29,930 nt of DNA from NCBI GenBank assembly GCA_964451595.1, contig CAYVIQ010000001.1, positions 1 to 29,930 of the forward strand, read 5' to 3'. The position numbers were made by a program, and so were the translations under genes. The notes under the pieces were generated by a model that was not told the DNA's origin, did no database searches, and was given only the letters and a program-made list of their open reading frames with translations. Source of the DNA: Candidatus Woesearchaeota archaeon (GTDB lineage: Archaea > Nanobdellota > Nanobdellia > Pacearchaeales > GW2011-AR1). Positions 2 to 25,177 of this stretch are shown one piece after another; position 1 is the first letter of the stretch; each line of letters starts with the position of its first letter.

Positions 2-100
2 ATAAAAGATAATTTTAAACCTGATTTGAAAGAAAAAGGAATTATTTTTGGAGTTCCTTTATATGGGAATTATTTTCCAAAAAACTACCAAAAAATTTAA
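2..100 (+). CDS. 3' end of an unidentified ORF truncated by the window edge (...IKDNFKPDLKEKGIIFGVPLYGNYFPKNYQKI*)
   Basis: Open frame from position 2 to TAA at 98-100; protein-like composition; too short to assign. Confidence 0.5.
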   Translation: MKDNFKPDLKEKGIIFGVPLYGNYFPKNYQKI

Positions 101-6717: not shown

Positions 6718-6741
6718 TTTCCCTCAAGAAATTGAGGGAAA
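6718..6741 (-). terminator. Perfect 10-bp hairpin downstream of ftsZ, candidate terminator or 3' stability element
   Basis: TTTCCCTCAA-GAAA-TTGAGGGAAA; on the minus strand it is flanked by U-rich tracts. Confidence 0.6.
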
Positions 6742-6770: not shown

Positions 6771-7850
6771 TTACTTCCAGACTTCAATACCTAAATCAGA
6801 TATTTCTTTTCCAACAGGTTGGGAGTAATCATCAACATCCTTTCCAAGAACATAAGGTGATCTAACACCAGTCATAATTGTAATTACTCTTACTTTTCCA
6901 GTGAATTCCTTGCTAATTCTTGCACCGATAATTACATTGGCTTCAGGACCAAGATTTTCTGAAACAGTTCTACCGATAACGTCGAACTCTTCAAGCTTCA
7001 AATCAGGACCACAAGTTACATGAATTAAAGCTCCGCTTGCACCTTTATAATCCACATCAAGTAGAGGATTTGTTAGTGCTTGCTGAACTGCTTCCATAAC
7101 TTTGTTCTGAGTATCAGCTTCTCCAATTCCTATAACAGAAACTCCGCCGTTCTTCATAATTGAAGAAACATCAGCATAATCTAAGTTGATTAAACTAGGC
7201 AAAGTAATTGTTTCGACAATTCCCTTTATCATAGTGGATACAAGTTCATTTGCAACAGCAAATGCTTGCTCTATAGGTAATTGTCCGGCAATATCAACTA
7301 ATTTATTATTGTCTAATACGATACATGTATCTGTAACTTCTCTAAGCTCTTGTAAACCAAATTCAGCCTTGTCAATTCTAGCTTTCTCTGATTCAAAAGG
7401 CATTGTAACAACACCAATGACAACAGCTCCTGATTCTTTAGCAATTTGTGCAACAACTGGCGCAGAACCAGTTCCGGAGCCACCACCTAAACCAGCGATA
7501 ACGAAAACCATGTCAGCACCGCCAACAGCTTTTTTCAATTCGACTAAAGCTTCTTTTGCAGCTTCACGTCCAATTTGAGGTTTTCCACCAGCTCCTAAAC
7601 CCCGAGTTAATTCTTTCCCTATTAAAATTTTTTCGTCAGCTTTAGTAACACTCAAATGTAAAGCATCAGTATTTGCTCCGTAAATTGTTGCTCCATTTAT
7701 ACCTTTATTGAAAAGCCAAGTTACAGCGTTACATCCCATTCCCCCGCATCCAACAACTTTAATGTTAGCTTTTCCAGCTCTAAGTTCATCAAAATTAATA
7801 CTGTGTGTGGAAGAATTTTGTACCGCTTCTTTAGCAAAATCTAATACCAT
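6771..7850 (-). CDS. ftsZ: Cell division GTPase FtsZ
   Basis: IKVVGCGGMG, NTD, GLGAGG.P, GLGGGSGTG tubulin signature, NLDYADV T7 loop, C-terminal DLGIEV. Confidence 0.98.
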   Translation of the reverse strand: MVLDFAKEAVQNSSTHSINFDELRAGKANIKVVGCGGMGCNAVTWLFNKGINGATIYGANTDALHLSVTKADEKILIGKELTRGLGAGGKPQIGREAAKEALVELKKAVGGADMVFVIAGLGGGSGTGSAPVVAQIAKESGAVVIGVVTMPFESEKARIDKAEFGLQELREVTDTCIVLDNNKLVDIAGQLPIEQAFAVANELVSTMIKGIVETITLPSLINLDYADVSSIMKNGGVSVIGIGEADTQNKVMEAVQQALTNPLLDVDYKGASGALIHVTCGPDLKLEEFDVIGRTVSENLGPEANVIIGARISKEFTGKVRVITIMTGVRSPYVLGKDVDDYSQPVGKEISDLGIEVWK

Positions 7851-7903
7851 CTCTTTTTACCTCCTTCTATTTGTATAACTCTATCTACTAAGCAGATTTT
7901 CAT
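7841..7903 (-). CDS. Putative leaderless 20-aa uORF overlapping the ftsZ start (MKICLVDRVIQIEGGKKRWY*)
   Basis: ATG 7903 lies 21 nt after TTATAAAG (7924-7931); frame open to TAG 7843-7841, inside ftsZ. Confidence 0.4.
   Translation of the reverse strand: MKICLVDRVIQIEGGKKRWY
7859..7864 (-). promoter_or_regulatory. Shine-Dalgarno GGAGGT of ftsZ
   Basis: GGAGGT 8 nt upstream of ATG 7850. Confidence 0.85.
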
Positions 7904-7958
7904 AAAAAAAATAACGCATCCTTCTTTATAAGAATTATGTCGTTGGAGAATAGAATTT

Positions 7959-23711: not shown

Positions 23712-25022
23712 TTAGAGTTCTTTTTCTTTTTCTATTGCTGTTGGAGCTTCGCCTCCGTGCCATGTAAATCTGGGCCGTATCCTCATAGGATAAATTCTCT
23801 CTGAATTGTCATCAAGAATTATTGCTGAACCTTTTAGCGTAGGGAGGTCATCCATGTTCTCTTTTATTCCTTTTAGTAAATAACTTTGCATAATTTGGTT
23901 TAGAGCTTCTAAGTCTGGAGCGGAAGTTACTCTGTGGGAGATTACAATATCTGATTGAGTCATAACATCTCGATGAATCTTTCCAGGCTGTTGAGTTGCA
24001 AGAATTAAAGAAATTCCAGGTTGTCTTCCTTCACGAAGTAATTGTATTAGTGCATCGCTTGCTAAAGATTTTCCTTCAAGAGGCAAAAATTCATGGGCTT
24101 CATCTATGAATATCCATGTCAAGGGTGTTTCTTTTTTTGTTTCATTAATTCCGTAACTTAATCCTCTTGAGATTGCTTTTATTTCTTCAAGTTTTCTTGC
24201 GGCCATTCTTTCATTAAACATTTTTCTTGATAGAAGGCTTATAACTAAAGCTCGAATGTTGAAACTTCCCACAGAATTATACACGCTTAAATCTAGGACG
24301 GTTGTTTTTCCTGCATTGATTAAATCTTTTATTTTTGTTGGTTTTACTGAACTGTTTGAAAAAATTCCCCAAGTTTCGGCAGCTTCAAATAATCCTATTG
24401 CTGCATTTTTGTTTTCTTGAGTGTTTTTTTTGTCTGCTTCTATTTCTTCAATTATATCTTTTATGGAATATTCTCCTTTTTGTTTTATTTTATTTATTGT
24501 CCTCTCTATTAGGACAGCGATAGGATTTATTATATCAAGACCAAAAGTTAAAATCCAATCTTCTGCGTTCATTTCTGCAATATCTAAAGCAAACTTCTCG
24601 TCAATGGGCATACCTTTCTCAACATACGACTGATAATACCCAAATGGCACAAACACTTTTACCGCAGTAGTTTGAGGTTTCAAATCCCACTCTTGTAAAA
24701 GTTCTTTGTCTTTTTCGTTTTGAAATTTCATTGTCCAATAAATTCCCATTGTGTCGAATATTAATGAAGCAATATTTTCTGAAACTTCTTTTGGTAATTT
24801 TGAGAGTTCTTCTGCTAGAACCCCCAGAGTATACGATTTTCCTGAACCTCTTTTACCTGCTACAAGTATGACATGGGATCTTGCAATATCCATATAAATT
24901 TTGTTGCTTAATGAAGTATATTGACCCATTTTCACATATCCTTTTCCGAGATAAATTAATCCTCTTTCTTTGAAATTTTTCTTGTCTGAAGAATTTCTTC
25001 CCACGATTATATCATAAGCCAT
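23712..25022 (-). CDS. HerA/FtsK-superfamily (DUF87-like) P-loop ATPase
   Basis: Walker A GKRGSGKS, IFDTMG, Walker B IFIDEAH, REGRQPG arginine finger, ATQQP; GGAGA SD at 25029-25033. Confidence 0.92.
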   Translation of the reverse strand: MAYDIIVGRNSSDKKNFKERGLIYLGKGYVKMGQYTSLSNKIYMDIARSHVILVAGKRGSGKSYTLGVLAEELSKLPKEVSENIASLIFDTMGIYWTMKFQNEKDKELLQEWDLKPQTTAVKVFVPFGYYQSYVEKGMPIDEKFALDIAEMNAEDWILTFGLDIINPIAVLIERTINKIKQKGEYSIKDIIEEIEADKKNTQENKNAAIGLFEAAETWGIFSNSSVKPTKIKDLINAGKTTVLDLSVYNSVGSFNIRALVISLLSRKMFNERMAARKLEEIKAISRGLSYGINETKKETPLTWIFIDEAHEFLPLEGKSLASDALIQLLREGRQPGISLILATQQPGKIHRDVMTQSDIVISHRVTSAPDLEALNQIMQSYLLKGIKENMDDLPTLKGSAIILDDNSERIYPMRIRPRFTWHGGEAPTAIEKEKEL

Positions 25023-25074
25023 TGAAAATCTCCAGCGGGTTTTTCACACCTCTAGCAATTAATTTTTTTGACAT
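25012..25074 (-). CDS. Putative leaderless 20-aa uORF overlapping the ATPase start (MSKKLIARGVKNPLEIFNGL*)
   Basis: ATG 25074 lies 22 nt after ATTAAAAG (25096-25103); frame open to TGA 25014-25012, inside the ATPase gene. Confidence 0.4.
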   Translation of the reverse strand: MSKKLIARGVKNPLEIFNGL

Positions 25075-25177
25075 AATTCTCTTTGGTTAACAATACTTTT
25101 AATTCTTTTGATGTTTTTTGGGATTTGAAATTCCTTTTTACCAAAATGTTTTTAAAGGAAAATTTCATAGTTGTGTG

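What the first reader, a model, noticed from the sequence alone, without database searches (positions are those of the whole stretch)
7841..7931. Leaderless 20-codon uORF reading through the SD and start codon of ftsZ
Seen: most genes here start 20-22 nt after a TATA-like box. For ftsZ the ATG at that position (7903) is not the ftsZ start but opens a 20-codon ORF. It crosses the GGAGGT SD and the ftsZ ATG (7850, 53 nt downstream) out of frame and stops just inside ftsZ. Established: leaderless initiation and termination-reinitiation at short gene overlaps occur in archaea. Inference: a ribosome loaded at the 5' AUG could occlude or deliver ribosomes to ftsZ, giving translational control of division. 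The same geometry recurs at the HerA-like ATPase.
Basis: partly seen in the sequence, partly recalled or inferred. Interest (0 to 1): 0.62.

Follow-up and report, generated by a model that had tools for sequence, protein, structure and literature searches.

The report
Conserved RNA hairpin leading ftsZ mRNA
The small reading frame in front of the cell-division gene ftsZ is real and sits where a transcript should begin, but the feature evolution has kept across about 145 related ultra-small archaea is a short RNA hairpin at the start of the ftsZ message, with the mini-frame a lineage-restricted and probably incidental addition.

Summary
A 20-codon ORF lies on the minus strand (7903..7841). Its ATG sits 21 nt after a TATA box (7931-7925). 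It crosses the GGAGGT SD (7864-7859) and the ftsZ ATG (7850), and stops at +10. Most genes in this 581-kb DPANN (Pace-/Woesearchaeota) genome are leaderless with exactly this TATA-to-ATG spacing, so a 5'-terminal AUG is plausible.

I compared 145 distinct ftsZ1 leaders. What is conserved is a 6-8 bp stem-loop, usually with a UUA loop (7897-7883). It starts within about 10 nt of the predicted transcription start and ends 12-20 nt before the SD. All eight stem pairs show compensatory changes, and the G.U pairs fit only the ftsZ sense strand. It matches no Rfam family and occurs once per genome.

The uAUG is found only in two clades of one genus (18 leaders, lost in one). The peptide is not conserved. 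Evidence for frame conservation is equivocal. The HerA "recurrence" is unique to this genome, and ATGs at the TSS position are not enriched genome-wide.

Verdict: this is a new cis-acting 5'-leader hairpin of ftsZ1, probably serving mRNA stability or protein binding. A regulatory uORF remains a minority possibility, about 0.2.

The parts
7925..7931 (-). TATA box TTATAAA of the ftsZ1 promoter
   Evidence: Sequence. The hexamer start lies at -28/-27 from the uATG, the same spacing as the genome-wide leaderless peak at -29..-27. It is conserved as (C)CATAATTCTTATAAA in genus relatives.
7904..7911 (-). T8 tract between the TATA box and the predicted start. It is an AT-rich melting region and a likely oligo-T terminator for the upstream DHH/DHHA1 gene.
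   Evidence: Sequence. Relatives keep the T-richness but not the sequence (conservation line). The terminator role is inferred from established oligo-T termination in archaea.
7901..7903 (-). uATG, at the predicted transcription start (A7903)
   Evidence: The geometry is identical to about 180 leaderless genes of this genome. It is conserved in 18 of 19 leaders of two clades and lost by a 1-nt deletion in L054. The TSS itself was not measured.
7841..7903 (-). 20-codon uORF (MKICLVDRVIQIEGGKKRWY*) that crosses the SD and the ftsZ ATG
   Evidence: Its length, frame and stop vary among relatives.
7883..7897 (-). Conserved 5'-leader RNA stem-loop AUCUGC-UUA-GUAGAU (uORF codons 3-7)
   Evidence: It is the MFE structure of the leader (-4.2 kcal/mol). 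A hairpin of score >=14 occurs at this place in 88 of 145 distinct leaders, against 9 (max 17) in shuffles. On 53 leaders picked for having such a hairpin, 8 of 8 pairs show double changes and 87% of cells are paired, against 37-44% when the partners are slid. There are 74 sense G.U pairs against 14 A.C pairs. It is the top CM hit in the window's own genome.
7859..7867 (-). Extended Shine-Dalgarno sequence GAAGGAGGT, with 9 nt between GGAGG and the ATG
   Evidence: (T)GAAAGGAGGT is the shared SD context of the few SD-led genes in this genome and of nearly all ftsZ1 leaders.
6771..7850 (-). ftsZ1 coding sequence (359 aa)
   Evidence: The N-terminus MVLDFAKE aligns from residue 1 in more than 180 relatives.
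6718..6741 (-). GC-rich 10-bp 3' stem-loop about 30 nt after the ftsZ1 stop codon
   Evidence: Fold. A strong hairpin is present in 98 of 141 distinct downstream regions, against 3.5 in shuffles, and the stem sequences differ between relatives.

Best explanation
ftsZ1 is one of the few genes in this leaderless-dominated DPANN archaeon that has a real leader (about 53 nt) and a strong Shine-Dalgarno sequence. The selected element in that leader is a short RNA stem-loop, 6-8 bp and usually with a UUA loop, at window positions 7897-7883. It forms at the very 5' end of the mRNA, 12-20 nt upstream of the SD. It does not sequester the SD or the AUG. Its most likely role is to protect or mark the 5' end of this long-leader message. 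That could mean resistance to 5'-end-dependent decay, matched by a conserved 3' hairpin, and/or a protein-binding site that sets ftsZ1 output. The 20-codon uORF arises because, in two clades of this one genus, the first three transcribed bases happen to be AUG. In an organism that initiates mainly on 5'-terminal AUGs it may well be translated. Even so, its peptide, length and stop are not conserved, so it is best read as an incidental or at most lineage-specific modifier. Shown: the ORF, the promoter geometry, and the conservation, covariation and strand of the hairpin. Inferred: the TSS position, translation of the uORF, and the stabilising or protein-binding function.
For: Leaderless genome:
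- TATA hexamers peak at -29..-27, and GGAGG precedes only about 20 of about 500 ORFs.
- The paralogue ftsZ2 is itself leaderless.

Hairpin conservation:
- A score >=14 hairpin occurs in 88 of 145 distinct ftsZ1 leaders, against a mean of 9 (max 17) in 200 shuffles.
- On 53 aligned leaders, 8 of 8 pairs show changes on both sides, with 103 double-change cells against 35 when shuffled. 87% of cells are paired, against 37-44% when the partners are slid by 1-3 columns. The middle loop base is invariant.

RNA rather than DNA:
- Allowing sense-strand G.U raises the hit count from 56 to 88, with 74 wobble pairs. Allowing the antisense equivalent (A.C) raises it only to 61, with 14.

Position:
- The hairpin's 5' end lies within -6..+12 nt of the predicted TSS in 70 of 74 leaders. 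Its 3' end lies 12-20 nt before the SD in 71 of 74.

Specificity:
- The CM's best hit in the window's own genome is this site.
- 13 of 14 hits at E<=0.5 in genus genomes are ftsZ1 leaders.
- No Rfam family matches.

3' hairpin:
- It is present in 98 of 141 downstream regions, against 3.5 expected.

uORF not generally conserved.
Against: - In the window itself the hairpin is weak (-4.2 kcal/mol, z = 0.25 against shuffles). Its reality rests on comparative data.
- The aligned set was chosen for having a hairpin, and the CM was trained on the same leaders, so lean towards the structure. The unbiased tests are.
- The shuffles preserved mononucleotide composition only, and the sequences are phylogenetically related.
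- Within the two uATG clades the block ATGAAAAT is nearly invariant, the uORF frame has far fewer stops than the other two frames (4 against 19 and 25), and insertions of +3, +3 and +9 nt keep the frame. A purely incidental uORF does not predict any of this.
- No TSS, stability or binding data exist.
Confidence: 0.6

Rival explanations
1. The mRNA starts at A7903, and ribosomes load on the 5'-terminal AUG by the leaderless route. They melt the weak hairpin, translate across the SD and the ftsZ AUG, and terminate 7 nt inside ftsZ. In doing so they either occlude the start of ftsZ1 or hand ribosomes to it, so the uORF is a selected translational regulator of division.
For: - The spacing is exactly that of leaderless genes.
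- The uATG is kept in 18 of 19 leaders of two clades, while the preceding spacer is scrambled.
- The uORF frame is open to the ftsZ ATG in 14 of 18 leaders, with stops per frame of 4, 19 and 25. Leader lengths of 53, 56 and 62 nt preserve the frame.
- Every uORF ends between -19 and +50 of the ftsZ ATG.
- Hairpins are weaker in uATG-bearing leaders (-4.2 against -6.8 kcal/mol).
- One unrelated lineage (L083) shows the same geometry.
- Leaderless short ORFs that regulate downstream genes are known in mycobacteria (bioRxiv 10.1101/834739; PMC4633059), and uORFs have been seen by Ribo-seq in Haloferax (PMC7261190).
Against: - The uATG is absent from the sister clades of the same genus and from about 110 other leaders that keep the hairpin.
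- There is no conserved peptide and no sensory codon run.
- 4 of 18 uORFs stop before the ftsZ ATG and 2 of 18 use another frame. About 4 frame-breaking length changes stand against about 3 frame-keeping ones.
- The stop at +10 is dictated by ftsZ codons.
- Much of the 'open frame' follows from the fixed extended SD, TAG-N-TGAAAGGAGG, which leaves only one frame open in uATG-less leaders as well (read by hand from the leader sequences listed; not computed).
- There is no genome-wide enrichment.
- The HerA twin is not conserved.
- The hairpin-strength difference is not corrected for phylogeny.
Confidence: 0.22
2. The inverted repeat is a DNA operator. A dimeric transcription factor binds the palindrome that overlaps the start site and represses ftsZ1 transcription. 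The uORF is irrelevant.
For: The palindrome overlaps the predicted TSS (-6..+12), which is the classic position of archaeal repressors. In a few lineages the predicted start falls inside the 5' arm.
Against: - The arms change sequence freely while staying complementary, and the centre (loop) is the conserved part. This is the opposite of a protein-read palindrome.
- There is a strong excess of G.T over A.C mismatches on the sense strand, 74 against 14.
- The spacing to the SD is tightly kept.
Confidence: 0.06
3. The 52-53 nt leaders of ftsZ and HerA are copies of a mobile 'start-codon cassette' that inserts at leaderless ATGs and carries its own ATG and mini-ORF.
For: - The two leaders are nearly the same length (53 and 52 nt) and each carries a 20-codon uORF.
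- The HerA orthologues are leaderless in relatives, so the HerA start was displaced in this genome.
Against: - Both leaders are single-copy in the genome, with only self-hits above 16 nt.
- The two leaders share no similarity.
- An SD-led ftsZ1 leader is present in nearly all of the about 145 distinct leaders compared, down to about 75% FtsZ identity, and so is ancient.
Confidence: 0.02

Closest known systems
5'-terminal stabilising stem-loops of bacterial mRNAs (E. coli ompA leader, B. subtilis aprE/ermC leaders)
   Same: A short hairpin lies within a few nt of the 5' end of an abundant, long-leader, SD-dependent mRNA. It does not occlude the RBS. It is paired with a 3' stem-loop.
   Different: The host is an archaeon, and the nucleases involved (aCPSF2 or aRNase J type) are inferred. 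No half-life data exist. The conserved UUA loop and the fixed distance to the SD suggest a specific binding partner, not a generic block.
Leaderless short ORFs that regulate downstream genes in Actinobacteria (mycobacterial LL-sORFs, polycysteine attenuators; PMC4633059, bioRxiv 10.1101/834739)
   Same: The 5'-terminal AUG opens a short ORF as the first cistron, upstream of an SD-led gene, in an organism rich in leaderless mRNAs.
   Different: There is no sensory codon run, and no alternative RNA pairing that hides the downstream RBS. The peptide and stop are not conserved. The uAUG is confined to two clades.
Archaeal uORFs and translational coupling at overlapping genes (Haloferax Ribo-seq, PMC7261190; termination-reinitiation at short overlaps)
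   Same: The uORF stop lies 7 nt past the downstream AUG, and an SD lies inside the uORF. That geometry is compatible with reinitiation.
   Different: The overlap is larger than the usual AUGA/UAAUG form. No translation evidence exists. The geometry holds in 12 of 18 leaders only.
Rfam cis-regulatory leader motifs
   Same: It is a small, covarying hairpin tied to a single gene.
   Different: No Rfam 15 family matches, even at E<=10. At 25 nt the motif carries too little information (0.75 bit per position) for database-scale detection.

Membership tests
Leaderless regulatory uORF / leader peptide | The transcript begins at, or within about 5 nt of, the uAUG | not testable with these tools
The TATA-to-ATG spacing equals the genome's leaderless mode, which is consistent but is not a measurement.
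Leaderless regulatory uORF / leader peptide | The uAUG, frame and stop are conserved among relatives | tested here: inconclusive
   The uAUG is kept in 18 of 19 leaders of two clades but is absent in at least 14 other genus leaders and about 110 others. Leader lengths are 53 nt in 8 leaders, 56 in 4, 62 in 1, 52 in 4 and 51 in 1. Fourteen of 18 frames are open to the ftsZ ATG.
Leaderless regulatory uORF / leader peptide | A conserved peptide or a sensory codon run | tested here: not met
   Peptides diverge after codon 7, for example DRVIQIE, NKKYNLK, DYNIVER and GLYRVER. Codons 3-7 are the hairpin.
Leaderless regulatory uORF / leader peptide | uORF translation toggles an RNA structure that controls the downstream RBS or a terminator | tested here: not met
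   The only predicted structure is the 5' hairpin. The SD and AUG are unpaired.
Conserved cis-acting 5'-UTR RNA stem-loop | The structure is present far more often than chance at a fixed position | tested here: met
   88 of 145 leaders against 9 in shuffles. The hairpin ends 12-20 nt before the SD in 71 of 74 leaders.
Conserved cis-acting 5'-UTR RNA stem-loop | Compensatory base changes maintain the pairing | tested here: met
   8 of 8 pairs show changes on both sides. The covariation score is 0.72, against 0.32 when shuffled and at most 0.19 when slid. The caveat is that the alignment members were chosen for having a hairpin.
Conserved cis-acting 5'-UTR RNA stem-loop | Strand asymmetry (G.U tolerated on the transcribed sense strand only) | tested here: met
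   74 G.U pairs against 14 A.C pairs.
5'-terminal mRNA-stabilising hairpin | The hairpin lies within a few nt of the real 5' end and lengthens mRNA half-life | not testable with these tools
   The predicted TSS lies a median of 4 nt before the hairpin. There are no 5'-end or decay data.
Palindromic transcription-factor operator | Half-site sequences conserved and spacer free | tested here: not met
   The arms covary and the centre is conserved. G.T asymmetry is seen as well.
Mobile start-codon cassette / MITE-like element | Multiple similar copies in the genome at other start codons | tested here: not met
   blastn-short found only self-matches for both leaders, and the two leaders are not similar to each other.
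Any Rfam family | A match to a curated covariance model | tested here: not met
   Two chance hits at E = 2.8 and 6.4, both far below their gathering scores and neither on the hairpin.

The most novel reading that the evidence does not exclude
In one genus of Pacearchaeota, whose ribosomes initiate mostly on 5'-terminal AUGs, a leaderless mini-ORF has been recruited in front of ftsZ1 as a ribosome-delivery or gating device. Ribosomes captured at the 5' AUG open a weakened 5' hairpin, run over the SD, and terminate just inside ftsZ. FtsZ synthesis, and hence division, would then be coupled to the cell's capacity for leaderless initiation.
Probability: 0.17. Interest if true: 0.65.

Novelty: new member of a known kind. 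Interest (0 to 1): 0.36.

Why it matters
DPANN archaea have tiny genomes and few recognisable regulators, and nothing is known about how they control cell division. A gene-specific RNA element at the 5' end of ftsZ1 mRNA gives a concrete handle on post-transcriptional control of FtsZ in these organisms. It is conserved with covariation across many uncultured lineages and is paired with a conserved 3' hairpin. The locus also offers a natural experiment, because some relatives carry a 5'-terminal AUG on the same leader and others do not. This shows what happens when a leaderless-type start lands on an SD-led mRNA. The mini-ORF itself is not shown to be functional, and on present evidence it is ordinary.

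Tried and rejected
2. Rfam: no family matches the leader.
3. Regulon search: the hairpin CM finds no other credible 5'-leader copy in the window's own genome. The weaker hits lie inside coding regions.
4. Generality of 'TATA + 21 nt + uATG': it is not enriched among leadered genes.
5. HerA recurrence: the uORF is present only in this genome.
7. SD sequestration or a two-state fold of the leader: none is predicted.
8. Sigma-70 promoter and intrinsic-terminator scan: uninformative for an archaeon.
9. Search for the 16S rRNA 3' end in the MAG, to check the anti-SD: not found with the patterns used.
10. Literature: I found no description of an ftsZ leader element or uORF in DPANN.
11. The first MAFFT alignment (A1) misplaced four sequences. 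I dropped them and rebuilt it as A2.

Full report
**1. The observation**

On the minus strand the window reads TTATAAA (7931-7925), then 21 nt ending in a T8 run (7911-7904), then ATG (7903). The ATG opens MKICLVDRVIQIEGGKKRWY* and stops at 7843-7841. This ORF crosses GGAGGT (7864-7859) and the ftsZ ATG (7850) out of frame.

The gene behind it is an FtsZ of 359 aa, and a second paralogue lies on another contig. The host genome is a 581-kb MAG in 107 contigs, 89% complete. Its closest public relatives are labelled Pacearchaeota, Woesearchaeota or Nanoarchaeota.

**2. Is the geometry meaningful in this genome?**

A crude gene set gave 544 ORFs of at least 100 aa, 511 of them with 80 nt of upstream sequence. 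TATA-like hexamers start at -29, -28 and -27 from the ATG 85, 70 and 97 times, against about 5 at other positions. GGAGG at -17..-8 precedes only about 20 ORFs. ftsZ2 is itself leaderless.

The geometry is not enriched, however. Among ORFs without a leaderless-type box, ATG at TATA+27..29 occurs 6, 3 and 2 times, against a background of about 4 per offset. One such uORF per genome is about what chance gives.

**3. The HerA 'recurrence'**

The HerA-like ATPase (23712-25022, minus strand; DUF87/HerA) does have a 20-codon uORF (25074-25012) that starts about 22 nt after an ATTAAAAG box. In the 19 genus relatives whose upstream region could be read, no such uORF is present. In most of them the HerA ATG itself sits about 21 nt after the conserved AATTAAAAAT box, so the gene is leaderless, and a few have a short leader. 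The uORF is confined to this genome.

The two leaders share no similarity, and neither is repeated elsewhere in the genome.

**4. Comparative data for ftsZ1**

I collected ftsZ1 loci from 40 relatives, 80 GTDB-species contigs and 80 metagenome contigs. Together they give 145-147 distinct 100-nt leaders.

Reading them shows a hairpin at the place of uORF codons 3-7. Its arms differ between lineages but stay complementary. Examples are AUCUGC/GUAGAU, AUUUGC/GCAAAU, AAUUCUG/CAGAAUU, AAUCCUG/CAGGAUU, AAUUCCG/CGGAAUU, CCCCGC/GCGGGG and CAUCACUU/AGGUGAUG. The loop is mostly UUA.

The quantitative results are these:
- **Frequency.** A hairpin of score at least 14 lies in the 35 nt before the SD in 88 of 145 leaders, against a mean of 9 (max 17) in 200 shuffles.
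- **Covariation.** On a gap-free alignment of 53 distinct members, all 8 pairs show changes on both sides. 87% of cells are paired, against 37-44% when the partners are slid. The covariation score is 0.72, against 0.32 when shuffled. These members were selected for having a hairpin, so one search is the unbiased test.
- **Strand.** Allowing G.U on the ftsZ sense strand raises the hit count from 56 to 88, with 74 wobble pairs. Allowing the antisense equivalent raises it only to 61, with 14. The structure is therefore RNA, on the mRNA strand, and not a protein-read DNA palindrome.
- **Position.** The hairpin starts within -6..+12 nt of the predicted TSS in 70 of 74 leaders (median +4). It ends 12-20 nt before the SD in 71 of 74.
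- **Specificity.** No Rfam family matches. A covariance model built from the alignment has this site as its best hit in the window's own genome. The weaker hits lie in coding sequence. In genus genomes, 13 of 14 hits at E<=0.5 are the ftsZ1 leader, although those leaders were part of the training set.

In the window itself the hairpin is weak (-4.2 kcal/mol) and unremarkable against shuffles. The case for it is comparative.

**5. The uORF in relatives**

An ATG with leaderless spacing occurs in two clades of the genus. These comprise 18 distinct leaders that all begin ATGA(A/G)AAT(C/T)T(G/A)C. One further member, L054, has lost the G by a 1-nt deletion.

The remaining genus leaders start the hairpin (AAUUCUG...) at the predicted +1 and have no AUG. 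Among about 110 leaders of other genera, only five lineages have an ATG at that spacing, and their uORFs are 1, 1, 7, 18 and 23 codons long. That is chance level.

Within the 18 leaders:
- The ATGAAAAT block is nearly invariant, while the 21-nt spacer upstream is scrambled.
- The distance from uATG to the ftsZ ATG is 53 nt in 8 leaders, 56 in 4, 62 in 1, 52 in 4 and 51 in 1.
- Fourteen frames are open to the ftsZ ATG. Twelve of them end at the +10 TAG, which is fixed by ftsZ codons 3-4.
- Four stop 6-16 nt before the ftsZ ATG.
- From the hairpin to the ftsZ ATG, stops per frame are 4, 19 and 25.

This last point is suggestive. My reading, from inspecting the leader sequences and not from a computed test, is that much of it follows from the fixed extended SD. 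The motif ...TAG-N-TGAAAGGAGG... closes two frames in every lineage, including those without a uATG. The same motif is the general SD context of this genome.

Counting events and not sequences gives about 3 frame-keeping length changes (+3, +3, +9) against about 4 frame-breaking ones (-1, -1, -1, -2). That is not significant. Peptides are unrelated after codon 7. Hairpins are weaker in the uATG-bearing leaders (-4.2 against -6.8 kcal/mol), a correlation that is not corrected for phylogeny.

**6. Interpretation**

The selected feature is a 5'-terminal stem-loop of the ftsZ1 mRNA. The SD and AUG are not paired, so it is not an RBS-sequestering switch.

A conserved GC-rich stem-loop also follows the ftsZ1 stop codon (6741-6718). 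It is present in 98 of 141 downstream regions, against 3.5 in shuffles. A message bracketed by structured ends fits protection against end-dependent decay. That role is known for 5' hairpins in bacteria (my own knowledge) and is only inferred for archaeal 5'-3' exonucleases.

The conserved UUA loop and the fixed spacing to the SD fit a specific binding protein equally well. I put the hairpin being the functional element at about 0.85, and the stabiliser/protein-site mechanism as worded at about 0.6 overall.

The uORF is probably translated if the TSS is at A7903. Selection for it as a regulator is not demonstrated, and I put that at about 0.2. Leaderless regulatory short ORFs are known in mycobacteria (PMC4633059; bioRxiv 10.1101/834739), and uORFs have been seen by Ribo-seq in Haloferax (PMC7261190). 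I found no report of either an ftsZ leader element or a uORF in DPANN.

**7. Limits**

- No transcript-level data could be obtained.
- Gene calls were home-made.
- Shuffles preserved mononucleotide composition only.
- The sequences are related by descent.

Noticed in passing
window 6718-6741 (minus strand): A GC-rich 10-bp stem-loop lies about 30 nt after the ftsZ1 stop codon. It is conserved in position in 98 of 141 distinct relatives, against 3.5 in shuffles, and the stem sequences differ between relatives. ftsZ1 mRNA is therefore bracketed by 5' and 3' hairpins.
   Followed up: yes
window 25012-25110 (minus strand): The HerA-like ATPase has a 52-nt leader with a 20-codon uORF only in this genome. 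In the genus relatives read, no such uORF is present, and in most of them the gene's own ATG sits about 21 nt after the AATTAAAAAT box. The start was therefore displaced recently, and the old leaderless ATG survives as a uORF start.
   Followed up: partly
L116, L044, L047, L056, L100, L071 and others, -95..-45 before the ftsZ1 ATG: In other genera a roughly 10-nt inverted repeat (GGAAATGTAT ... ATACATTTCC, with covarying variants such as GGAAATGTG/CACATTTCC and GGAAGTGTGTC/GACACACTTC) flanks the BRE/TATA region of the ftsZ1 promoter. It could be a long-range RNA pairing from an upstream start or a bipartite DNA site.
   Followed up: no
L024-L031 and many L1xx loci, ftsZ1 promoter: The order-level promoter consensus is CGAAA-TATTTAAAC-(A/T)TTTCG: a BRE-like CGAAA, a TATA box, and the reverse complement of the BRE. 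This symmetric arrangement may allow TFB to bind in either orientation.
   Followed up: no
genome contigs C40, C68, C90, C20 (upstream of ORF starts): The few SD-led genes of this genome share an extended SD context, (T)GAAAGGAGGT. C40 also has a hairpin (UUCUUAA-AACC-UUAAGAA) about 10 nt before it, the same architecture as ftsZ1.
   Followed up: no
genome contig C53:1225-2313: The second FtsZ paralogue (46% identical) is leaderless, with TTTTTAAAAA about 21 nt before its ATG. The two division paralogues therefore use different initiation modes.
   Followed up: partly
L034/L005 (G010), -59..-37 before the ftsZ1 ATG: This relative has a 10-bp hairpin whose 3' arm is GGAGGUGAUG, a perfect SD-like sequence. 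It is followed by an ATG in frame with ftsZ (a possible 13-codon N-terminal extension or a decoy start).
   Followed up: no
L007/L118 (G012), -68..-40 before the ftsZ1 ATG: This leader carries an extra insertion of about 25 nt, with a second hairpin (GGAAAU-GUAAAA-AUUUCC), between the conserved hairpin and the SD.
   Followed up: no
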